In this document: positions 6,319 to 25,110 of the stretch, one piece after another
Numbering within the stretch: position 1 is the stretch's first letter
Layout of the letters: each line of letters begins with the position of its first letter
Assembly (NCBI RefSeq): GCF_009914755.1
Contig: NC_060933.1
Strand: one strand, 5' to 3'
Length of the DNA: 64,000 bases
Origin: the human T2T-CHM13v2.0 reference genome, Homo sapiens
Made by a program: the position numbers and the translations under genes
Notes under the pieces: model-generated
Told to the model about the DNA's origin: nothing
The model's input: the letters and a program-made list of their open reading frames with translations, nothing else
Databases searched by the model: none

Positions 6319-6397
6319 ATGTTGGAGATCTGCCTGAAGCTGGTGGGCTGCAAATCCAAGAAGGGGCTGTCCTCGTCCTCCAGCTGTTATCTGGAAG
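6319..6397 (+). CDS. ABL1: ABL1 exon 1a coding part ([26 protein letters not shown])
   Basis: ATG at 6319; donor AAG|GTAAGC after 6397; 79 nt, phase 1. Confidence 0.99.
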
Positions 6398-6506
6398 GTA
6401 AGCCCGGGCCGCACGGGTTGGGCTGAGTAGCCGCGCGCCCTCCCGCTGCTGCTGGGCCCTTCCTAGGCCTCGCCGCCCGCGCGCTCCCGCCTGCGCCCTC
6501 CCCGGG

Positions 6507-6655
6507 TCTTGTCTTTTTTTTCTTTCTTCCCTCTTCTCTTCTCTTCAGTTCTCTTATATTCTGTCTCTCTTTCTTTCTCTCTGTGTCTGTCTCTTTTCTC
6601 TTCTCTTGTCTCTCTCTTTTTCTCTTTCTCTCTCTCTGTCTCTTTCTCTTTCTCG
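6507..6655 (+). repeat. CT-rich polypyrimidine low-complexity tract
   Basis: About 150 nt almost entirely C/T with (TC)n runs. Confidence 0.95.
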
Positions 6656-6853
6656 CGATGGCCCCTAGGCGCCGCCGGCGGAGCGTGGCCCCCAGCCCCG
6701 GCACCAGCCCCGGTAGAGCCACGCCGGATGGTGACGGCGGCGTCCGGGGCCCCACAGTGCGGGCTCCCCCGAAAAAGTTTGAGAAAGCCAACTCGCCAGG
6801 CCTTAACATCCCTGGGATCCCACGTTGTGGAATTTCCACCGTTAATTGGGACT

Positions 6854-6943
6854 GTGTGTTAAAAAGATCGACCCGTGTTTGTGAAAACATGCGATTTCCA
6901 TTAAGCATCATGTACACAAGGAGCACCACTCTACCATTTATGG
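6854..6943 (+). pseudogene. Putative non-functional human counterpart of mouse c-abl type III 5' exon
   Basis: Reads KRSTR...IKHHVH/(frameshift)RSTTLPFM-G versus recalled mouse isoform III MSQRWTYTKCRVQRDPALPFM. The expected donor position 6944-6945 is AT. Confidence 0.65.
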
Positions 6944-7414
6944 ATACAGAATTTCAAGTGATCTTTCCATCTCCCCCACCCCCATCTTATCTACAGACCA
7001 CGAAGAGGTCTTAGGAATTCGCTCTCTTTTCAGGGGAGGGGAGCCCATTTAAGAAGGCGTTTCCAAGGAGTCCCCCAGAGTACTGGGGTGTCATGTTCGT
7101 TTCCTTAAGTGAAGCTCAGGGCCAGGAGGGCTTCACTTTTGCGTTCTTTCTACCTACTCTCCTTCTCTAATTACATCTGTTTTATTTTATTTTTCTTTCC
7201 TGTTGTAGTCTTTAGTTTTATAAATGGAAAAAAAGTAAATTAAGGGTTATGGGTCTTCACTTTCGTAGCTTCTAGGTGGGTATGAAATTGATCTGATTTG
7301 AGACTGGTGCTCCCAGACCATTGCCTTCAGCAGAAAGGCTATCTGTGCTTCAGAGATGGAGTGGCACTTGGACTTCTCTGTTGTTTTCAACTAAGAATAT
7401 AAGAGTAAAAATGT

Positions 7415-7750
<336 letters not shown>

Positions 7751-8904
7751 TCAAGTAGGATTTCTGCTAGAATGCCATGTTTTTCTTTTTAAAAAAGCAG
7801 GAGAAATAAACAGGCCTCATTTATTTTCTAACCTATTTTTCTTTCCTTAACCTCTGACTCTACCCTGAAGGCCTGCTTGGAGTCACATATGCAGATCGCA
7901 CTAGTGATGTGGGTGAAACCTGTTTGCCCTTCTTGCCACAGTTTGTGTACCTCACTCCTCTTCTGTCTCTGGGATTCCAGGGGGCTGAATGGCCCAGAGA
8001 AGGCTCATCTAGGTGGAGTGGGCTCACAGAGCCTAGCATTTGGAGGGTGGAGATTGTTTATTTGTCCCTAAAAGTTGATGTCTGAGCATTCCAAATCATC
8101 TTCAATTAATACATCGCTTATTTTTTCCAAGTTGCTCAAAATTCTGAGCACATTCTCATTTACATCTGTATCGAGTTAGTGTTAGGCATCATCATCTCCA
8201 CTTTGCAGATGGGTGCCTAAGGCGGGGATGAATGGACTTTTGTAAGTGCAGAGCTGGAGCAAAGTTTAGGTCACAGCTTTGCCAAGTCATTGTTTTGTTT
8301 TCCTGGGAGTAAACCGGAGATTTAGTATGGACCTGGCTGGTTTAATTATTGTTTTGGGAAAAAAATCTAAAACTCATTCCAACATGTCTTGAAATGAATT
8401 ATAATGTTGACTCTAAAGTCTCAAAAAAAAAAAAAAGTTCTAGTACAGCAGACTGCCTTGGGTTAAACCTTCTTCTAGGAAGGTGTCACTCTAGGAATTC
8501 TTTCTTACTGAGTTTTCTTCTTTTCGTTGTTATAGTTAATTAGAGAAAGTAAATGGAATTATCATTTTGTAGTTGGTAGACTTTAACAAGCCTCAGCGAT
8601 AGTCTTTTAAAGACTGGAAGTGCTATTTGTCTTTTGGGAAAAATAGTTCCTAACATCTGGATGAGTAATCCAGGCTTTCCACTTTCACTGACAGCCTAAA
8701 TCAGTCAATCAGTGTCGATCAGTCAGTCAGTGTTTATTGACGCCCACTCAGGGTCCCAGGCATTCCCTGTCAGGGAGAGAATTGAATGAGATCAAGTTTT
8801 TCATTGTTCTATCAAAGAAGCTTCCACCATAAATGTGGTTTGATGGTGCATGCTACCTGCTACTCAGCCTAGCTGTCAAAGCAACACTGGTAAACATAAA
8901 GATG

Positions 8905-9130
8905 GCTAGCAATTATTAAATGCTTACTATGTGCCAAATACTGTTTTATTACTCTATGTGATCTGATATAGTTATATTTCATGATAGCACTATGATTATT
9001 TCCATTTTATAGATGAGGAAACTGAGTCACCAAAAGGTTAGGTAACTTGTCTAGGGTCACAGAGCCAGTGAGTGGGGGTACTGGAATTTGAACTCATGCT
9101 ATCTGGCTTGGGAGAGCCCACTTTTAGCCA
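8905..9130 (-). mobile_element. MIR
   Basis: ccattttatagatgaggaaactgag...gtaacttgtctagggtcacagagccagtgagtgg. Confidence 0.9.
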
Positions 9131-9769
9131 CTGGATGCTCTACTGATGTCTCTTTTGGAATTCACTGTGATTTTCAAAATGGTATCTCCAGAAACTCCTC
9201 CAATTAATCCCTGAAATGTAAGGGTAGTCTCTTTTTCTTTTCTAGAAACCTGATCCTGGCAAAATGATTAGCTTTAACAGTAGGATTAATTTTTTTTAAA
9301 TGTATATAAAAATACTTGTATGTAAGAAATCCTAAAAGGGTATTTAGTGAAAAGTAATTCCCTCTCCTATTCATTTTCCCCACCTAGAGGCAATCACCCT
9401 GGAGTTTTATGTGTGTCCTTCTAGAAATACTGTGTGCACATATAAGCATTTATTATAACATGTGAATTTTGCTCTCCAGCTTTTTGTGAATATGCATGTT
9501 TATAGCAGTATCTATTCACCAGGACCGCATTTAGCTTTGCAATATTCGGTCTACTTTGAACACTGAATTTTCTGATTATTTCTTTCCCCTGGAGACGTCA
9601 AAGAAAACATGAACACTAGCCTTTTGAATTCAGGGTTTTCTTTTCATTTTATTTTCATTTGTTCATGTGTTTGTATTTACATACATTGTGCCTGAATATT
9701 GTACATGTATGTGACAGTTGTGTACTGTAGAATCAAAAACTAATGTCTGTGAACTGAACTCTTCTTGAA

Positions 9770-10100
9770 CTTTTTGTTGTTGTTGTTATTGTTGCTTTTG
9801 GAGATAGGGTCTTGCTCTGTCACCCAGGCTGGACTGCAGTGGCACAATCACAGCTCACTGCAGCCTTGAGCTCCTGGTCTCAAGCAACCCTCCCACCTCA
9901 GCCTCCCAAGTAGCTGGGGCTGCAGGCATATGCTACCTGACTAATTAAAATTTTTTTTTTTTTTTTGTAGAGACAGGGTCTCACTATTTTTACTAGTTTG
10001 CCCGGGCCAAGCCAGTGTTGAACTACTGGCCTCAAGTGATCCTCCCACCTTGGCCTCCCCAAAGTGCATCCCTACAGGCATGAGCCACTGCACTCAGCCT
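9770..10100 (-). mobile_element. Alu (AluJ-like)
   Basis: Diverged antisense Alu with (GTT)n tail. Confidence 0.9.
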
Positions 10101-11506
10101 GAACTTTCGAAATTTATTTTAAGGGCCCACTTTTAAATGCTTCTTTTCAGCAGCTAACTTTCCAGCGGATGCTTCATGTGGTGCCAGCCATACAGATACG
10201 CTTTTAGAACTTGAGCTTTGGAGAAGCTTATGCTTGCTTTCTGCTCTCTCCTGAGGTCATCAGATACTTCCCTTGTTCAGTAACAAAGAAAGTGAGACTC
10301 TTTCTGTTACCTAATAAAAGGCCAGTCTGTCCATTTCATTTTGGGTGCTATTAACATTGTTGACCATTTACAATGTCACAGGCCCTGGCACTGAGCACAT
10401 CATGTGCAGCCTCACTTAATTTTCACACCAGTGCCCTGAGGTTTCTAGAAAAGAGGAAGGGCCCCAGTTTAGGTGGCAGTACTTTTCAATTTGGAGGCAG
10501 GAGATCCCAGTTTTCCTCTGACCTCTCTGAGCTTCCGTGTTTTTACCTCTAAGACAGAGAGACCAATCTCTGTTCAGCCACCTTAGAGGATTGTTTTGAG
10601 GGTCTATAAGATGATTGAGGGAAAGCTCTGAAACTGGTAAGAGTTAAATGTATGTTTGTGTTATGTTGATACGAGATTCCTCTGAGATGCTCTTTAGTCC
10701 AGGCAGGTTTATGGCTCACACAGCGTTCCTAGGGTCTCATTCTTCTGCACAGGCAGGCAGCTCCCGAGCCAGCCAGTCTGGACCCAAATGCCACCTGTGC
10801 TCTTGGCTGGTCTTGCGCATTCACCGAGGCTCACTGTACCTTGGTGTTCCCATTTCTAAAATAAGGCCTGTAGTAATCCCTACCTCACTGAGTTGTTGAG
10901 AGACTTCATGTAAATTGTTTAGCAGGGAGCCTGGCACAGAACAAGAGCCTAGCAGAAAAGTAAGCTGTTGTTACTTTAAGCAAATATTTAGCAGCCTAAA
11001 ATGGTGGCTTTACCAGTTTCTGTAATGGTTGAAGTGATGACAGAATTCAGCCAATCCCACCCATAGTTTTTCTTGCTAATAAAGCAGTTTGTTTCTAAGT
11101 GTGTTTTGATGCGTATAATTAATACTTCCTGTCCTTGATTTTTGGCTGAAAAATGTCTTCTCTTCCTCGCACCCTCTGTTATTCCCGTAGTGAATATTTT
11201 CATTGTGGAAGAGAAATTCCCATTGGCTCATGGTTGGCATTTTATTTCTCCTGTCCAGAGACAATATTTCCACAGCCTCAAACGTGAAAACTGAAAATCT
11301 GGTGCCACTTACCACCTTGTAAAATCAAGTCATTGTAATTGTGCCAGTATAATCATTGATCTGAAATAAAAGCAGAAAATAAATCAATGGGTAGCTTTCT
11401 TAAATACATAAGAACTAAAGATCAAATGGGATATTGGAAGACTTTAACTTTTCCTCCATAATGGTGGATCTTAATTAAACACACAGAAGAACAATTTATA
11501 AAATAA

Positions 11507-11749
<243 letters not shown>

Positions 11750-11898
11750 TAACAATTATCAGCTTATAGTCAGTCTTGTTTTCTTACATAATAAAGTTAC
11801 AGTTTCAAAGCCATTAGGAAGAATAGCTTGCTAATTATAATTACTTAGTTTTGATAGTGTAACTTTGTCCTCAGATGGGTAGAATCGTTACTCTGGAA

Positions 11899-12383
<485 letters not shown>

Positions 12384-12402
12384 CTCTAGAAATTGGTTTT
12401 CA

Positions 12403-12746
<344 letters not shown>

Positions 12747-12769
12747 TTATATTGCGTGTGTTGAGTACT

Positions 12770-13090
12770 GGTGATAGGGAAGACAGAGAGAAATAGGTGG
12801 GAAGGAGATAGAGAGAGAGAGAGGGAGGGAGGAAGGGGAGACATAAGGGGGAAATCTATAGAGACAGAGACTGAGAGACAAATACAAAAAGGTTGAGACA
12901 GGAAAGGGAAAAAAAAACAAGCTGGGAGGGAAGGAAGACTGAGAGAAGGGAGACAAAGAGGAATAGGATGGCCAGTGGGGCTGGGGTGGGTGGGTACAGA
13001 GAGAGAATGAGTGAGAGCAAGAGAAGCGCAGGAGACAGATGATGGACAGGCAGCTGATGTATGGATGGGTAGCTGGAGAGAGAGGCCATC
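12770..13090 (+). repeat. GA-rich polypurine low-complexity tract
   Basis: (GA)n/GGAA-rich, strongly strand-asymmetric. Confidence 0.9.
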
Positions 13091-14999
13091 AGTAACTTCA
13101 CATCTCTCTGTTTCCATTTCCTGCCCTCAAATGCCTTCATAATAGAGTCTACGTAATAAGGTTATAGGGATTCAGTGCAGATGAAGTGCTGGCACTTGAT
13201 ACGGGATCAGTAAGTATTAGCTATTATTCTATCACATTAAGTTGCATAAACTTTAACCTCATTACTCTTAAATTCTCTATAGAAACCTAGTCTTTATCTG
13301 TCTTACAAGCCCTCAAATTTAGCTAATAGCGTTGTTCATTGAATACCTTAAAATTGTATTTAAAGACAGGCCGTGAATACAATTAGGCATTGCTTTTTGA
13401 AGCCAAAATACCATGAGGGTGGGGAGGGTCATGTTCATTTACCCAGATCAGCAATAAAAATACTAATGGCTAACAAGGCTTTCTGGGGAAATTGCCTGTC
13501 ATTGGGTAGCCCAGTGCCTCTGGTGTCAGCTGACCCCGGAGTCCATGAAGACATGTTAAAAGAAGAGGAAATGTGAATGCTTTCAAACCAGCCATGGCTG
13601 GCAGCAGAAGGGGAGGCCTTTCAGTCTGTTGCAAATGGCCTGTGACAATAAAAATGCCTTTGTGGGTATTAGCAGGCTGACTGTGGACAGTCTGGATCTG
13701 CGGCCACTGCAGGGATTCCTGGAACCTGTTGGGAAGGTGTCCGGCGAGCTCACTGTGGTGTCTGTTAGGAATCTGGAGCAAATCCTATTTCTTTTGAAAG
13801 CACAGAGAACTGTGTTTTTACATTATACCTTTAGGATTTTGGCCATGGTTTATATTTCAGTCAAAACAAATCATTATGTTCCCTAGGCTTTTATATAGGT
13901 TTTCCTGGTCAGGTTGCATTTGTTTTTCAACTTTACTATCTGTCATTATTGCTGCTCTTATTACAGGTTAACAGATTATTAAACTGCACTTTTCAGTACC
14001 TTGTAGCTAAAGACAGACAAGTGCAGGGTGTTCCACATCTGAGTTCACCCAGCAGTGCTGTGTTGTTGCGTTGCACTGAGCAGGCACAGAAGGCTCTGAG
14101 ATATGAGAGACTTGGTCTCTACCCCAGAGGAGTTTACATTGTTGTGGTGGCAGAAGAGAAGGCGTGGCATAAGAGAAGACGCGGTTGTTCTGTAGTGAGC
14201 ATCCCAGTGTCAGGTGCCACAGTTGGCATCCATGCAGAAATTCTCTGCATGCAGGATTCATTGAGCCCTCCCGACAGCCCAACTAGGTTGATGCCATGCC
14301 GTTGTTGCCCTGTTGTGCAGTTGAGAAACTGAGGCTCAGAAACAAATGTCTTCAAGACATGCTGGTGCTGAGGTTTGAACAAGGCCTGTCCACCCAGAGC
14401 CCATGCTTTTTGTACTGCTGGGGACATGTGAACAGATTGCTTACTGGGTGATAGATGCAGGGTGGTGATAGAGACAGACACCAGGTACCCAAATGGGTTA
14501 AAGGAGAAGCATCCTGTTGTGGGCGAGGTGATGGGGAGGAGGAAGGACCGGTTAGAGAAGGTTTATGGGAGATGGGGAGGCCAGGAAGAGCAGAAGAGGC
14601 TGGGGAACGAACTCTAGGGAGAGTAAATGGCACTTGTCACAGTGCAGTCAGGAGAGGCAAGCAACAGGAGGCCTGGGGGATCTGAAAGGAGTTTGGAGAG
14701 GCTGGAATGGAAAGCAGGAGTAGAGGGCCAGATGCTCCCAGTCTCAACCCTGAAGAGCCTGGCATGCCTGCTTCAGGAGCTCAGACTTTTACTATAGTGG
14801 TGGAAGGAATAACAACCCCAGCCATTTTTTGAGGGCCTGTGCATGCCTAGGCCCTCAAAAACATGTCCCATGTTAGCTGCAAACTGCCAGCTACCCTGCA
14901 AAGCACATCATGATCCCAGCATTGCCCCCGATGACACTGCCAGTAAGTGGTAGCTGACCATTGGGAGACAGGGCCACCTCCCAAGCCCATGCTCTCTTC

Positions 15000-15360
15000 T
15001 GCCTCTCGGCTGGCAGCCATCTCTAAGGGATTTGAAGCAAGAGAGTGACCTGGTCAGGTCTGCATTTGAGAAAGATGGCCCTGATAGTAGGGAGTGGAGG
15101 TGGAATGGCCAAAGGGGGACCCAGCCAAGGGCGTGGTAGAGCATGGAAAGGACAGAAGTGATGAGAGATTGAGGAGGAAAAGTGCCAAGATGCAGGGTGG
15201 GAACTGACAGAGGATGACTTCCAGCCTCAGTCCTGATATGGGCGTCAATGGCAGGTGTTCAGAATGGCCTTGAAGATAGTGGCATCTCTATTTATGAGTG
15301 TCTTTGTACTCCATTTCCAGTAATTGGAGACTTTTTCACCGTAGATTCTTGGAAGGTGAC
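15000..15360 (-). mobile_element. L2 fragment
   Basis: agccat...ggatttgaagcaagagagtgacctggtcaggtctgcatttgagaaagat pattern typical of L2. Confidence 0.65.
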
Positions 15361-15429
15361 ACAATTTTTTTTTTTCCTTTTTGGTTGAGGGAGGGGGACA
15401 GGGACTGTGTATCTTCAGAAAGGTTAATA

Positions 15430-15697
<268 letters not shown>

Positions 15698-16160
15698 CTA
15701 GTTTCTACCAGAGACAGTCACAGGCACTGTACTTCTACTCTGGTTTGTTACCTGTGTTCTTAAAAAAATTAAATGCTACATTTTAGTAAGAGGTTAGTGA
15801 AATAAAATTTTAATTTTTCCCATCAGAGGACATGGAGCCCTTGAATTCTATCCCAGACTCCCAGGGTCTTCCAGGTTAACAAGTCCTGCACTAAGGAATT
15901 GGCTCAGTAAAACCTCAGCATTCTCACAGGAAGAGCCTAAAAAGGAGACTGGGATAAATTAGTGAGAGGTCCAAATTATGCAATTTTCTTTTAAAATAAA
16001 TGCAGTTTTATTACTTTCCACTTGTAGCCATTATAGGCAGTAGATTAAATGAGTTTCTAGAGAAACCTCCTTTAAAAATAAAGTTATTTAATTAGTCCAA
16101 GGTTTAAATATTTCCCCTGGAATCTTTTACATGACAATGTCTTAGCCAGACAATTTTTAA

Positions 16161-16490
<330 letters not shown>

Positions 16491-16686
16491 TGACGGTTGT
16501 GATCATTGTTCGCACCACTACTTTGAAATGACATAGTTGCCACTGGACCTTGTTATTTAATGTGCGAATAAAGAGACAGTTATTTAAGGCATTAATAAGA
16601 GCTATATTACAAGTTTTTAAAAGTCTTTTGAGGACTGTTTCAAAAAGTCTTTTGAGGACTGTTCTCCTTTGCAATCCTCTGTAAAT

Positions 16687-16744
16687 GCACCATTGCATTC
16701 CAACCCGGGCAACAAGAGCAAAACTCTATCTAAAAAAAAAAAAA
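16687..16744 (+). mobile_element. Alu 3'-end fragment
   Basis: gcaccattgcattccaacccgggcaacaagagcaaaactctatct(A)n. Confidence 0.85.
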
Positions 16745-16949
16745 TTCATCCACAGGACAGCGCTGGCCTTCCGTTAGACTTTTGCTGTTGAGTCTGTAAG
16801 TTTTCAGCAGCTGTGTTTCTCCAAGGAGCGGGGCTACTGCTGGTTCTTTACGTCTTTCCCCCACTGCCCTGCCCCTCCCTGCACCCTAGCAGCTGACACA
16901 GTGTTTTGGGATTTGAAGATAACACAAAGGCTGTGTTCAGTTAAACGTA

Positions 16950-16953
<4 letters not shown>

Positions 16954-16981
<28 letters not shown>

Positions 16982-16997
16982 CTTGTGTGTGTGTGTG
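16954..16997 (+). repeat. Interrupted (TG)n microsatellite
   Basis: About (TG)14 CT (TG)7. Confidence 0.97.
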
Positions 16998-18444
16998 TTT
17001 TAATAATTTTAACTTCTCTGGGTGAAGGTGTAAATTACAAAATAAAGGACCATGTAGAAATAGATAAAATGACTTTCATCAAGCTCAAAATGTGGGAAAT
17101 AATACTTTTCCTCTAAGCTCATATTTTGAAAAGTTGTTTGAGACTGTTATAAAATAACTTGAGAATAGTCTGAGCATGATCTCATCCGCTGGAACGGAGT
17201 ATGAAATAAAACACGAAGCCTCTTTTTAGAAGGATCTGTTTTATAGATTTTTAAATTACAGAGATTCCTTGAACTGGAGGATAATAGCGAAGGACCCACA
17301 AAGGAAATATGAATAAAGCAGCACAAGTTTAAATAATTGAATGTGAGCAAAATTAAAGGGAACGTTTGTCACGTCTGACATGCTCCATCCTCCTGTCCCC
17401 CCCACACTGAACCGTCTCCAAGAACCTTCCGGAGAGCCCACAGTGTGAACAGTAATGAATGCTCCATAGCTGGCCGCCTTGCACTCTAGTGGGAACTATG
17501 ATGTTGGGCACAAGTGCCAGCAGGAAGGTGGGAAGCTTCCCGGGGATGTTTTTCCTGGAGGTCAAGTCCCCCCTTGGGCTGTGAAGTAGCCGGTACTGGG
17601 GTTCATGGGCATTTCCCTTCCCTGACTGTTCGCCAGCGTCTGGCACAGCACCAGCAGCCCCTGGAAGTCTAGGCCAGATATGCCATGTCCGAGAATCTTT
17701 TGTAAACATTTTTCATCAGTGACTCACAGCTTTGAGAAAGGATTATTTTTATATAAAACGATCTTTCAATTTTACTTTAAAGACCCAAACCATTTTCTTA
17801 GAATACTGTCTAAACAAGTTAATCATGCACAGATCCAGTGAATTCTGTGGCCTGGTTCTTATAAAATTTCCAAATAATTTTATACTGTCATAGACAGAGC
17901 CAGAGCTTTTTAGAGGTTTGAGGCATTTTTTAGATGTATTACTGTTCTCGGTGCTCAACTAGCTAATTAGTGATTTTTTCTGAGTTTAGTTGGTGAGTGG
18001 AAACCTTTTTGTTAACATTATGACAAAATAACAATATGGTTTTAAGTGGAGTGAGAGGCACTTTTGAAGATCCAGATCTTAGATCCAGATCTTAAATCTG
18101 TTTAAAGTATGACTCAGAAAGGAGGCTGCAGAAAATGTTCACTAAAAAAATTTAAGAATAATAGCAGATGCTAAAATTTATTTCCCAAGACAATAGCCAA
18201 AAAGATCTGCTGGAAGAACAGAAGAAGGGAACTAGTTGGGGCATCTTTTTTTTTTGAATGAAGCCTTCAGCCTTCTTTAGGGGAATCTTGCTTCCTGACA
18301 GAGGGACCGGTGGAAAGTTTGTGTCTTAAGCAAGAAAGATTTAAGTACATTCTGCAACTTTGGCCTTGTAAGCTGTGATCATTTTTAAGGTTGACGAGCA
18401 TAGTTCACTATGAAATGAAGCAAGTAACTTGGCATTTATACATT

Positions 18445-18509
18445 GTGAGTCAATTTTGACATCAGCCTGGATTGGGAATTGACTGGAAGGTTTTGGTGTT
18501 GGACTGTGG
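18445..18509 (+). pseudogene. Putative non-functional human counterpart of mouse c-abl type II 5' exon
   Basis: Reads NFDISLDWEL/(frameshift)WKVLVLD/V-G versus recalled mouse isoform II MISFDLLSDELHLKLLVLDV. The start is GTG and the expected donor position 18510-18511 is CT. Confidence 0.65.
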
Positions 18510-19070
18510 CTACACTTCAGTGTCTCGGTCCAGAGGCATGCATGAGCAATACTTCCCTTTGGGCTTTAGCCATTAATTTGTGGAATAGAGCAAGAACTGG
18601 AGAGGAAAGTCGAGAGACTGCCTTGGATCGCCTGACGTCCTGTTGAATCAAAAAGCAGTGGGAGGCCCTTTCCTTCCTAACAAAGGCCTCATCCTCTTGC
18701 ATAACATTCCCAGCATCTGTCGACATGTTCGGGACCATCCCACTTTAACCCACACTTCAAGTGGATGGCCACCTCTGGGCGGGGATCTGCATTCTGCTTA
18801 TTCCAGGTGTTTTCCAGGCCACTTCCCCGATTATGTAACTTTGATCAAATCCAGATGCGGCAGAATGTTTGATAGAAGAGGTCAAATGGCATTTGAGAAG
18901 AAAAGCATTTCTGTATTCATGACTTTGGTTTAATTTCCTGTGTGGGCCTGGTCTGCCAAAGTTGTATGCTCATGGCCACGAGGTTGACGCACCAGAGGGA
19001 GGCACTCAAGTGCCTTTTCAGGACAGCCTGAAGGAAGCCTCCCTCCCCAGCATGCTTTTTCATGTTAAAT

Positions 19071-19408
19071 TATCAATTATGTAAGTTTAGGGCCAGGCGC
19101 GGTGGCTCCTGCCTGTAATCCCAGCACTTTGGGAGGCTGAGGTGAGTAGATCACTTGAGACCAGGAGTTCAAGACCAGCCTGGCCAACATGGCAAAACCC
19201 CGTCTCTACTGAAAATGAAAAAAAAAAAAAAAAAAAAAACTTAGCCAGGCGCAGTGGCTCACATCTGTAATCCCAGCTACTCAGGAGGCTGAGGCAGGAG
19301 AATCACGTGAACCTGGGAGCTGGAGGTTGCAGTGAGCCTAGATCGCACCACTGCACTTCAGCCTGGGCGATGGAGTGAGACTCCAACTCAAAAAAAAAAA
19401 AAAAAAAA
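19071..19408 (+). mobile_element. Alu with expanded A linker
   Basis: Full-length; linker contains an A run of about 22. Confidence 0.95.
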
Positions 19409-19447
19409 TTTCAATTGGCTTCTATTAAAGCTTTTTTATGTTTGTCA

Positions 19448-19878
<431 letters not shown>

Positions 19879-20393
19879 TCACAGTTTGGTGAAATTCCTC
19901 CTCGTCTTCTATTTTTTCATAGTTGGGACCATGCCTATATACTGGAATGTAATATAAACACTTAATATATTATTGCGAGTATATTCTCAAACTTAAATAT
20001 TTTTTCCAAAAATATTTTGAGTGGCTTTTAAAATATATCCTATTTTATGCATGCAGCATAAACTAACTTATCCTGTGTTGATAGATATTTTGTACTTGCC
20101 CTTTTCTGTGCTGTTGTTTAAAATTAGTGTATAGAAATAATTGTGTTGATCACTTAGGATAAATTCCTAGAGGTAAATCAGATATTAAATTCTTTATAGA
20201 CTTCTGGTTCATATTCCAGTTGCCCTCAATTTATACACCTACTACTAGCATTGTATGAGAGTGCCCGTTTCTCTGAAATCTTACCCACACTGGCTGTCAG
20301 CGTCAAAAAGATGTATCTGCAGATTTGGCAAGGAATTTGCATTTCAGTGATTATTATCAAGCGTTCACACACTTTCCATGTTTAATGGTAATT

Positions 20394-20688
20394 TTTTTTG
20401 TTTTTTTTTGAGACGATGTCTCACTCTGTTGCCCAGGCAGAGTGCAGTGCCGCGACCTTGGCTCACTGCAACCTCTGCCTCCCAGGTTCAGGTGATTCTC
20501 CTGCCTCAACTCCTTAGCAGCTTGGATTACAGGCATGCGCCACCATGCCCGGCTAATTTGTGTATTTTTAGTAGAGACGGGGTTTCACCATATTGGCCAG
20601 GTTAGTCTCAAACTCCTGACCTCAAGTGATTGCCCGCCTTGGCCTCCCGAAGTGGTGGGATTACAGGTGTGAGCCACCGCACCTGGCC
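20394..20688 (-). mobile_element. Alu
   Basis: TSD tttaatg(g/a)taat. Confidence 0.95.
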
Positions 20689-20837
20689 TTTAATGATAAT
20701 GTAAATTTTTTGTGAATTGTTTATTCGTGGCTTTGCCCCATTTTTTCCATAGTGGAGGGATTTTTCTTTTTCTTGTTGGTATGTAAAGTCCTTGTGTGTC
20801 AAGAATGCTCTGCCTCACAGTTTTTCTAATATAATGA

Positions 20838-21750
<913 letters not shown>

Positions 21751-21764
21751 GGGGTGGGGATCAC

Positions 21765-22065
<301 letters not shown>

Positions 22066-22631
22066 TAATAGTGATGGCGCTAGGTGTACTTTTAGAGCCA
22101 ATGTAAATAGTCGAGAAAGGGGGCCAAACATATGACTAAGCTTCTTCTACACTCTAGGAGATGTCAGTATTGCAAGATCCTGTTCCTTGAAATTATCTTT
22201 GCCCCCCGCCATTCAGAAAAATTACCAAATATTGTAATAATGTAATTTAGGACTTACCCTTTCAGAGAAACAGTTCCTGAAGGTTGACTTCAGTTAGTAG
22301 TACAGAAGCGAGACTTGAAGCTCTTCATGGTTTATGTTCTGTTGGTTTATCCCAAAGAGATGTTTTAGAGCACATTCATTTCTGAAAGTTCTCGGTCATG
22401 TTTCCGGAAGTTTGATCAGGTGGGTTCTTTTTCTTTTTTTAAAAGATAATTTTTTTTTTAAAGATAATTCAGAATCAGTCCCACCCCTGAGATGGTATTA
22501 TTACCCAGGAAAGAATGCGTGAGGATCCTCTAAATCCATAGAGAAGGAAAACTAAAACAATTTTGTTACCATTTGTTTGGCTCAAGCATCTGGTAGATCC
22601 TTCAGTTCTTTTCAAATTAGAATTTTCCTCT

Positions 22632-22950
22632 CTTTTTCTTTTTTTTTTTTTTTTTTGAGATGGAGTCTTACTCCATTTCCCAGGCTGGAGTACAGTGGCA
22701 CAATCTCGGCTCACTGCAGCCTCACCTCCCGGGTTCAGGCAATTCTCCGGCCTCAGTCTCCTGAGTAGCTGGGATTACAGGTACCCGCCACTAATTTTCA
22801 TATTTTTGCCTGGCTAATTTTTGTGTTTTTAGTAGAGATGGGGTTTTGCCATGTTGGCCAGGCTGGTCTCGAACTCCTGACCTCAGGTGATCTGCCCACC
22901 TCAGCCTCCCAAAATGCTGGGATTACAGGGGTGAGCCTCCACGCCGGGCC
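22632..22950 (-). mobile_element. Alu
   Basis: Antisense Alu, TSD tctcttttt. Confidence 0.95.
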
Positions 22951-23050
22951 TCTCTTTTTAAGATAATAAAAATTACTAAACATCATAATGACATGATTTG
23001 GGATTACTCTTTCAGAGAAACAGTTCCTAAAGGTTTACTTCAGTTAGTGA

Positions 23051-23380
23051 TTTTTATTTTTATTATTTATTTATTTTTTGAGATGGAGTCTCACTCTGTC
23101 TGCCAGGCTAGAGTGCAGAGACGAGATCTCAGCTCACTGCAACCTCCGCCTCCCAGACTCAAGCGATTCTCCTACCTCAGCCTCCTGAGTAGCTGGGACT
23201 AGTAGCTGGAACTACAGGCGCCCGCCACCATGCCCGGCTAGTTTTTTCTATTTTAGTAGTGACGGGGTTTCACCGTGTTGCCCAGGTTGGTTTTGAACTC
23301 CTGAGCTCAGGCTCAGGCAATCTGCCTGCCTCAGCCTCCCAATGTTCTAGGGTTACAGGCATGAGCTACTGTGCCTGGCC
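23051..23380 (-). mobile_element. Alu
   Basis: 16-bp TSD cagttagtgattttta at 23041 and 23381. Confidence 0.95.
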
Positions 23381-23932
23381 CAGTTAGTGATTTTTAAATT
23401 GTAGTTCCTTAAATGAGTATTTTGGATTTCACTCCACAATGTTCTTCAACTGTAAGATCTACTTGAGGTTATTTGATTTGCTGGTTTGCAAGAACTCGTC
23501 TACACGTTGTCTTTATCACAAAGAAATTCTGGAGCGTTTGAGCCCTGTTCAAAAAAAAAAGGCAAGAAGAAACTTCAGGAACAAATAACCTATTTGACCC
23601 TGTAATGAATAATATTCACACATTTTCTAATTTAAGAGCTGTTGATTGATTTCCAACTTTTAGAATCTGTTTCAGACAAAACATGGAAGTTTAGTAACAG
23701 TTTTTTCTATTCTGTAATAATAATTGCCACAAGGTTAAAAAAAAAAATTTACAGAAGAACATATTTGAGGGTGGTCGTGGGGGCAAGAAAGCTGGAAGGA
23801 CGGGTGGGGTGTGTTAATAGCCTTGTCTTGTGAAGTAAGTCCTCAGAGACGCTGTCCTAGTTGGAAGAACAGGCAGTGAAGGTGTGCGTCTGTTACGGAG
23901 AATAGGACTCCAGTGATCTAGCTGGTACTTAG

Positions 23933-24587
<655 letters not shown>

Positions 24588-24936
24588 AAAGCAAGAAATT
24601 TTCATTGCATATTTTAAGCAAAGGCAAATGCATATGTGGATAGACTGTTTTAATTTGACTAAAGTCATATTGAATCCATGAATTTTAGAAGCTCAAACTA
24701 TTGGGGAACAATAATTACCACCTTGGAGTGAAAATACTTAATTTCCACAAGATTTAGTAAAGGAAGAGTTTTTTAAAAACCACCTTAATGATAATAGTAT
24801 GTACAGATGTTAAGAAATGAAATAGGAATGTGTAATGTTGGAAACACAAATATTTTTGCTTCTGAGAATAAAACTAATTTTTTCTCCCAATTTTCTCTTC
24901 CTTTTTCTTTTTTCTGTTCCCCCCTTTCTCTTCCAG

Positions 24937-25110
24937 AAGCCCTTCAGCGGCCAGTAGCATCTGACTTTGAGCCTCAGGGTCTGAGTGAAGCCGCTCGTTG
25001 GAACTCCAAGGAAAACCTTCTCGCTGGACCCAGTGAAAATGACCCCAACCTTTTCGTTGCACTGTATGATTTTGTGGCCAGTGGAGATAACACTCTAAGC
25101 ATAACTAAAG
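24937..25110 (+). CDS. ABL1: ABL1 exon 2 (a2; N-cap and start of SH3)
   Basis: Long polypyrimidine tract, ccag|AAGCCCTTCAGCGG; [14 protein letters not shown]...[17 protein letters not shown]; donor AAG|GTAAAA; 174 nt. Confidence 0.99.

What the first reader, a model, noticed from the sequence alone, without database searches (positions are those of the whole stretch)
18445..18511. Human counterpart of the mouse-only c-abl type II first coding exon, also inactivated
From memory, mouse type II is MISFDLLSDELHLKLLVLDV. Human reads gtga(g)tc aat ttt gac atc agc ctg gat tgg gaa ttg -ac tgg aag gtt ttg gtg ttg gac (t) gtg g|ct, i.e. xxNFDISLDWEL.WKVLVLD.V then a phase-1 G. The ATG is GTG, there are three 1-nt indels, and the donor reads CT. 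Finding both missing mouse N-termini in the same intron, each ending at the correct phase, makes chance unlikely. It points to a lineage-variable cassette of alternative ABL N-caps.
Basis: partly seen in the sequence, partly recalled or inferred. Interest (0 to 1): 0.8.

Follow-up and report, generated by a model that had tools for sequence, protein, structure and literature searches.

The report
Possible relic of mouse c-abl exon
A 67-base stretch inside the first intron of human ABL1 looks like a rare mouse-only alternative ABL start exon, but in human it cannot code for anything, and whether the likeness is real could not be settled because no mouse sequence was available.

Summary
The stretch is not a usable exon. 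It starts with GTG instead of ATG and has a stop after 4 codons. The peptide must be stitched from three frames, and the proposed donor reads CT.

One whole extra codon is needed besides the three 1-nt indels.

No tool held any mouse c-abl type II sequence, so the mouse peptide remains unconfirmed.

Against random 20-mers aligned to the intron with the same freedom, the result depends on the statistic:
- Raw identity and best-case base mismatch are not unusual for leucine-rich peptides (P about 0.1-0.3).
- An information-weighted score is rare (3 and 8 of 3000).

The likeness is therefore probably real if the recalled peptide is right. "Inactivated" and "cassette of N-caps" have no support: the direction of change is untested, and none of the 120 listed ABL1 proteins has such an N-terminus.

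The stretch is single-copy. It lies in a RefSeq-annotated enhancer and carries adjacent AP-1 and CRE-like motifs. Interest is low.

The parts
18445..18511 (+). It is intronic DNA of ABL1, 12.0 kb after exon 1a and 6.4 kb before exon 2. When stitched from three frames it resembles the recalled mouse type II N-terminus.
   Evidence: Searches give the letters and frames. One search shows it is single-copy in the human genome. Searches give the chance models.
18445..18447 (+). GTG at the place of the proposed start codon. It is also the first three bases of a GTGAGT hexamer (18445-18450) that looks like a splice donor.
   Evidence: In one search, ATT|GTGAGT scores 7 of 9 against MAG|GTRAGT, the same as typical real ABL1 donors. 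53 of 1055 GT sites in the intron score 7 or more.
18457..18459 (+). TGA stop, 4 codons after the GTG in its own frame.
   Evidence: VSQF*.
18473..18475 (+). Extra TGG codon with no partner in the 20-residue recalled peptide.
Evidence: Hand count on the letters.
18510..18511 (+). Place of the proposed splice donor. It reads CT.
   Evidence: In one search, TGG|CTACAC scores 3 of 9. The nearest GT (18506-18507) scores 5 of 9.
18446..18464 (+). TGAGTCA (AP-1 consensus) at 18446-18452, followed 4 bases later by TGACATCA (CRE/ATF-like) at 18457-18464. ATTGG (reverse CCAAT) lies at 18471-18475.
   Evidence: Searches give the positions. The window-wide counts are not above shuffles. The motif names are recalled. 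The pairing is a post hoc observation.
18320..18942 (.). RefSeq functional element 'enhancer', which contains the stretch. A 'silencer' element at 18534-18828 follows it.
   Evidence: The hub's annotation table given with the finding. No call of mine tested it.
24937..25110 (+). ABL1 exon 2, the acceptor that any alternative 5' exon would join. Its translation served as the query P0001.
   Evidence: The hub's table.

Best explanation
The 67 bases are ordinary single-copy DNA of the ABL1 intron between exon 1a and exon 2. They are probably the human orthologue of the DNA that mouse splices as its rare type II 5' exon.

In human the stretch is not an exon, and nothing shows that it ever was one. 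It has no ATG, a stop after four codons and no GT at the matching donor place, and the peptide-like reading spans three frames with one extra codon.

The likely history (inferred, not shown) is that the rodent lineage acquired the ATG, the open 20-codon frame and the donor in a piece of intron. That would be an exonisation yielding a minor mRNA, rather than primates losing an ancestral N-cap.

What the stretch does in human, if anything, is cis-regulatory. It sits inside a reporter-assay enhancer annotated by RefSeq and carries adjacent AP-1 and CRE-like sites.
For: - Letters and defects are shown directly.
- The stretch is single-copy in the human genome: 1 match, itself.
- Weighted match to the recalled peptide: 51.5 of 82.1 bits (hand sum with the weights). 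This was reached by 3 of 3000 and 8 of 3000 random leucine-rich 20-mers. It exceeds two real ABL 1b peptides that are not encoded in the window (46.4 and 45.8 bits).
- The method recovers exon 1a at 6319-6378 with the full score.
- No type II-like N-terminus appears among the 120 listed ABL1 proteins: 55 of 1b type, 39 of 1a type, 2 BCR fusions and 24 other. The 24 are 21 intron read-throughs, 1 truncated 1b and 2 unrelated models.
- None appears among the 84 short hits either.
- Enhancer annotation comes from the hub's table.
Against: - The mouse peptide is a recollection and no call confirmed it. If it was shaped by the human letters in view, the match means nothing.
- Two of three chance statistics are unremarkable for leucine-rich peptides: at least 12 identities in 36 of 150, and 9 or fewer best-case mismatches in 29% of 400. 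I chose the weighted statistic after seeing these.
- The random peptides only approximate the composition of the recalled peptide.
- Synteny with the mouse exon was not tested.
- The protein lists show only representatives of 90% clusters, and only 120 of 1451 hits, so minor isoforms are hidden. Their absence says little about direction of change.
- AP-1 and CRE-like motif counts in the window are not above shuffles: 8 against 10.9 expected, and 2 against 2.9.
Confidence: 0.45

Rival explanations
1. The likeness is chance or an artefact of recall. The stretch is simply intron (and part of an enhancer) with no special relation to the mouse type II exon. The resemblance arises from a leucine-rich peptide, three freely placed frameshifts, an extra codon and an unverified, possibly biased recollection.
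For: - Random peptides with 35% Leu reach at least 12 of 20 identities somewhere in this intron in 36 of 150 trials.
- They reach 9 or fewer best-case base mismatches in 29% of 400 trials.
- No tool or paper in reach could confirm the peptide.
Against: - The information-weighted score is reached by only 3 and 8 of 3000 random peptides.
- 9 of the 12 matches are in residues rarer than Leu, including a run of 6 matches in the last 7 places.
- A recollection invented from the human letters would more likely fit a single frame.
Confidence: 0.35
2. An ancestral mammalian ABL1 had a type II-like alternative N-terminal exon here. It has decayed in the human lineage through loss of the ATG, three frameshifts and loss of the donor, while mouse kept it.
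For: The same conditional match as above. The human stretch carries several separate defects, as a long-dead exon would.
Against: - Several defects in 67 bases is also what neutral intron divergence gives for a sequence that never coded.
- No type II-like N-terminus appears among the 120 listed ABL1 proteins from mammals, reptiles, amphibians and a coelacanth. This is weak evidence, because only cluster representatives are listed.
- From recall, not from a call: type II mRNA was described as a minor species in mouse.
- No outgroup sequence was examined.
Confidence: 0.2

Closest known systems
Mouse c-abl type II 5' exon (Ben-Neriah et al. 1986, Cell 44:577). I saw only the reference entry. Its content is recalled.
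   Same: By hand, 12 of 20 residues of the recalled N-terminus can be read here. The reading ends one base (G) before the place where the exon would join exon 2 in phase 1.
   Different: Human has GTG for ATG, a stop after 4 codons, three frameshifts, one extra codon and CT for the GT donor. No transcript is annotated here. Orthology and synteny are untested.
Human ABL1 exons 1a and 1b (mouse types I and IV)
   Same: They have the same role in principle: alternative 5' exons joined in phase 1 to exon 2 at 24937, each giving a different N-cap.
   Different: 1a and 1b are intact and conserved from coelacanth and amphibians to mammals (39 and 55 of the 120 listed proteins). The stretch at 18445 has none of the features of a coding exon.
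Lineage-specific exonisation of intronic DNA (species-specific minor alternative exons)
   Same: A short exon used at a low level in one lineage, whose orthologue elsewhere is plain intron lacking start, frame or splice site.
   Different: Such exons often derive from repeats. This stretch is single-copy and unmasked. The direction (gain or loss) is not established.
Intronic enhancer with AP-1 and CRE/ATF sites
   Same: It lies inside a RefSeq 'enhancer' element (hub table). TGAGTCA and TGACATCA are 4 bases apart.
   Different: I tested no binding, conservation or activity. The motif counts in the window are at chance level.

Membership tests
Alternative first coding exon of ABL1 (N-cap exon) | ATG start codon | tested here: not met
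   18445-18447 is GTG.
Alternative first coding exon of ABL1 (N-cap exon) | Open frame from the start to the donor, ending in phase 1 | tested here: not met
   There is a stop after 4 codons. The peptide-like reading needs three frames. The uncorrected length of 65 bases gives phase 2.
Alternative first coding exon of ABL1 (N-cap exon) | GT splice donor at the exon end | tested here: not met
   CT at 18510-18511, scoring 3 of 9 against the donor consensus. The real ABL1 donors score 6-8 of 9.
Alternative first coding exon of ABL1 (N-cap exon) | Transcripts joining it to exon 2 (24937) | not testable with these tools
   No junction or EST data are in reach. RefSeq lists no such exon (hub table).
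Orthologue of the mouse c-abl type II exon | Nucleotide alignment to the mouse cDNA or genome better than the flanking intron | not testable with these tools
   No mouse DNA or type II protein was obtainable. Only a hand comparison with a recalled peptide was possible.
Orthologue of the mouse c-abl type II exon | Syntenic position between the type I (1a) exon and exon 2 | not testable with these tools
   The primary papers on the mouse gene map are not held.
Orthologue of the mouse c-abl type II exon | Peptide-level likeness beyond chance | tested here: inconclusive
   P is about 0.1-0.3 by identity or best-case mismatch and about 0.001-0.003 by weighted score. All of these are conditional on the recalled peptide.
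Cis-regulatory element (enhancer) | Experimental enhancer call covering the stretch | not tested
   The hub's table lists a RefSeq enhancer at 18320-18942 and a silencer at 18534-18828. I did not see the underlying assay.
Cis-regulatory element (enhancer) | Transcription-factor site consensus sequences | tested here: inconclusive
   TGAGTCA lies at 18446 and TGACATCA at 18457. Window-wide counts are at chance level, and the close pairing was noticed post hoc.
Interspersed repeat | Multiple copies in the genome | tested here: not met
   18300-18700 matches only itself in the 3.1-Gb assembly. The tool warns that counts are lower bounds.

The most novel reading that the evidence does not exclude
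The ancestor of placental mammals had more than two ABL1 N-caps. The type II-like exon at this place, and a type III-like one elsewhere in the same intron, were working alternative exons that primates lost and rodents kept. The autoinhibitory N-cap of ABL1 would then be a lineage-variable module.
Probability: 0.1. Interest if true: 0.45.

Novelty: new member of a known kind. Interest (0 to 1): 0.2.

Why it matters
If the likeness is real, it shows where the rare mouse type II c-abl exon sits relative to the human gene, and that human cannot make that isoform. That is a small point for anyone carrying mouse ABL isoform results over to human.

It would not change the picture of ABL1 regulation, which rests on the conserved 1a and 1b caps. 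Any genome-browser alignment of mouse and human would settle the matter in minutes.

Tried and rejected
1. **Literature.** Seven word searches found no open paper that discusses mouse type II or III c-abl exons. One search found only two papers that cite Ben-Neriah 1986. I saw their reference lists only. Four papers asked for by id are not held: PMC367959, PMC365533, PMC299509 and PMC2954126. A search for a 14-base word of the window in full texts found 0 papers.

2. **Getting a type II N-terminus from protein databases.** I searched with the exon-2 peptide.
   - The 'longer' search gave 1451 hits, of which 120 were listed. The 'near' search gave 84 hits.
   - None had a type II-like N-terminus.
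   - Mouse isoforms are hidden inside the 90% clusters.

3. **The open frame over the stretch (18449-18643).** It has no homologue sharing words in the 5.8-billion-protein set.

4. **Mammalian ABL1 loci in viral contigs and genome contigs.** There were none. The only hit was a 268-base contaminant, L001.

5. **tblastn of the odd N-termini (P0024, P0085 and others) against the window.** There was no signal at the stretch. P0024 hits Alu-like places throughout the window. The weighted aligner also places them elsewhere, at null-level scores.

7. **Repeat origin** was rejected, because the stretch is single-copy.

8. An exact permutation test and a six-frame search of the human genome with it were therefore left out.

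Full report
**What is there.** The window is human chr9 (T2T) around ABL1. The finding lies in the intron between exon 1a (ends 6397) and exon 2 (starts 24937), 6.4 kb upstream of exon 2.

Translation of the three forward frames gives the following (stop-to-stop frames):
- The frame from 18449 gives VNFDISLDWEL, then runs on as TGRFW....
- The frame from 18445 gives VSQF*, then ...DWKVLVLD, then CGY.
- The final GTG plus G needs a third shift.

There is no ATG (GTG at 18445), a stop four codons after it, and CT at the proposed donor (18510-18511).

- The human reading has 21 codon places against the 20 residues of the peptide he recalled. A whole extra codon (TGG 18473-18475) is needed on top of the three single-base indels.
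- The 'correct phase' exists only after his corrections. The raw span 18445-18509 is 65 bases. What remains independent is that the next base is G.

**The missing comparison.** The decisive test is alignment with the real mouse type II cDNA, and it could not be run.
- No tool here holds mouse DNA.
- The primary papers are not held. A review asked for by id is not held either.
- Seven word searches of the library gave nothing on type II or III c-abl exons. One search found only two papers citing Ben-Neriah et al. 1986, of which I saw the reference lists only.
- A 14-base word of the stretch occurs in no held paper.

I tried to pull a type II-like N-terminus out of the protein database by searching with the exon-2 peptide (P0001).
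- The 'longer' search gave 1451 hits, of which 120 are listed. The 'near' search gave 84.
- Sorted by what precedes the exon-2 part, the 120 are 55 of 1b type, 39 of 1a type, 2 BCR fusions and 24 others.
- The 24 others are 21 gene-caller read-throughs of the intron just before exon 2, one truncated 1b, and two unrelated models (P0024 from a ground squirrel, P0085 from tuatara).
- The 84 short hits are genomic read-throughs or fragments, and one is of 1a type.
- None resembles the stretch.

This is weak evidence. Only representatives of 90% clusters are shown, so minor isoforms of mouse or rat would be hidden.

Three other routes also gave nothing. The open frame over the stretch has no word-sharing homologue. 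Scans for ABL1 loci in viral and prokaryote contig collections gave only a 268-base contaminant.

**Is the likeness more than chance?** I did not type the recalled peptide. I compared it with the letters by hand.

I then asked how well random 20-residue peptides can be fitted to the + strand of intron 6398-24936 with the same freedom (up to 3 single-base shifts, up to 1 codon gap, best place anywhere).

| Statistic | Leu 35% | Leu 35% + Asp 15% | Background composition |
|---|---|---|---|
| At least 12 identities | 36 of 150 (14 of 150 with next base G) | not run | 0 of 150 |
| At least 51.5 bits weighted score | 3 of 3000 (0 with G) | 8 of 3000 (4 with G) | maximum 51.2 in 400 |

In the weighted score each match counts as minus log2 of that residue's codon frequency in the intron.

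Controls behave as expected:
- The 1a peptide taken from stored protein P0019 is found at 6319-6378 with the full 80.4 bits.
- Two 1b peptides, whose exon lies outside the window, reach 46.4 and 45.8 bits.

The picture is mixed. The plain counts are unremarkable for a leucine-rich peptide. The weighted score, which is the better statistic but which I chose after the other two, puts the match near 1-3 in 1000.

All of this is conditional on a recollection that no call confirmed. The random peptides also only approximate its composition. I put the probability of real homology at about 0.65.

**What it is in human.**
- The stretch is single-copy: 18300-18700 matches only itself in the 3.1-Gb assembly. 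It is not in a masked repeat (hub table).
- It lies inside a RefSeq 'enhancer' element (18320-18942), and a 'silencer' element (18534-18828) follows it (hub table, not tested by me).
- The first 20 bases of the supposed exon hold TGAGTCA (18446-18452) and, four bases on, TGACATCA (18457-18464). By recalled consensus these are AP-1 and CRE/ATF-type sites. ATTGG follows at 18471-18475.
- Window-wide counts of both motifs are at shuffle level: 8 against 10.9, and 2 against 2.9. Only the close pairing stands out, and I noticed it post hoc.
- The 'start' GTG is also the head of a GTGAGT hexamer. With its flank it scores 7 of 9 against the donor consensus, like real ABL1 donors, though 53 of 1055 GT sites in the intron do as well.

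**How it most likely came about.** What is shown is that the human stretch cannot act as a coding first exon. The rest is inferred.

If the homology is real, mouse uses as a minor 5' exon a piece of intron whose human orthologue lacks start, frame and donor. No outgroup was examined, and five or more differences in 67 bases is also what neutral divergence of never-coding intron would give.

I lean towards gain in the rodent lineage for three reasons:
- The conserved caps 1a and 1b are found from coelacanth and amphibians to mammals in the lists.
- No type II-like cap appears in those lists.
- From recall only, the type II mRNA was described as minor.

My estimates are:
- about 0.45 for 'orthologous intron, rodent gain or never an exon in our lineage';
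- about 0.35 for 'chance or recall artefact'.

**Novelty and value.** Lineage-specific minor exons whose orthologues are plain intron are a known kind. A mouse-human genome alignment would display this one directly. The idea of a lineage-variable set of ABL N-caps is the boldest reading the data leave open, at a probability of about 0.1. Even if true it would be of moderate interest. Overall interest is low (0.2).

Noticed in passing
window 18446-18464, also 17720-17726 and 18110-18116: TGAGTCA lies at 18446 and TGACATCA four bases later at 18457. Three of the window's eight TGASTCA sites fall within 17720-18452, next to or inside the annotated enhancer. This could be an AP-1/ATF-responsive intronic element of ABL1.
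   Followed up: partly
window 18281-18450: An acceptor-like site (pyrimidine-rich tract ending in TTTAG before 18281) and a donor-like ATT|GTGAGT at 18444|18445 bracket a possible 164-base cryptic exon just upstream of the finding. No transcript evidence was available.
   Followed up: no
protein P0024, N-terminal 34 residues: A ground-squirrel ABL1 model has an alternative N-terminus that matches Alu/SINE-like translations all over the window. It is probably a repeat-derived first exon or a model artefact.
   Followed up: partly
L001 (268 bases, contig of a Streptococcus mitis assembly): This contig encodes an ABL-type exon 2. It is 90% identical to one place on human chr1 (G000:C1:178486231-178486467), which I take from recall to be the ABL2 locus. 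It is therefore vertebrate, non-human DNA contaminating a bacterial assembly.
   Followed up: yes
proteins P0002-P0014, P0122-P0205: More than 100 distinct short 'proteins' from metagenome sources are gene-caller read-throughs from the intron into ABL1 or ABL2 exon 2 of many vertebrates. This shows how much host DNA sits in metagenome protein sets.
   Followed up: no
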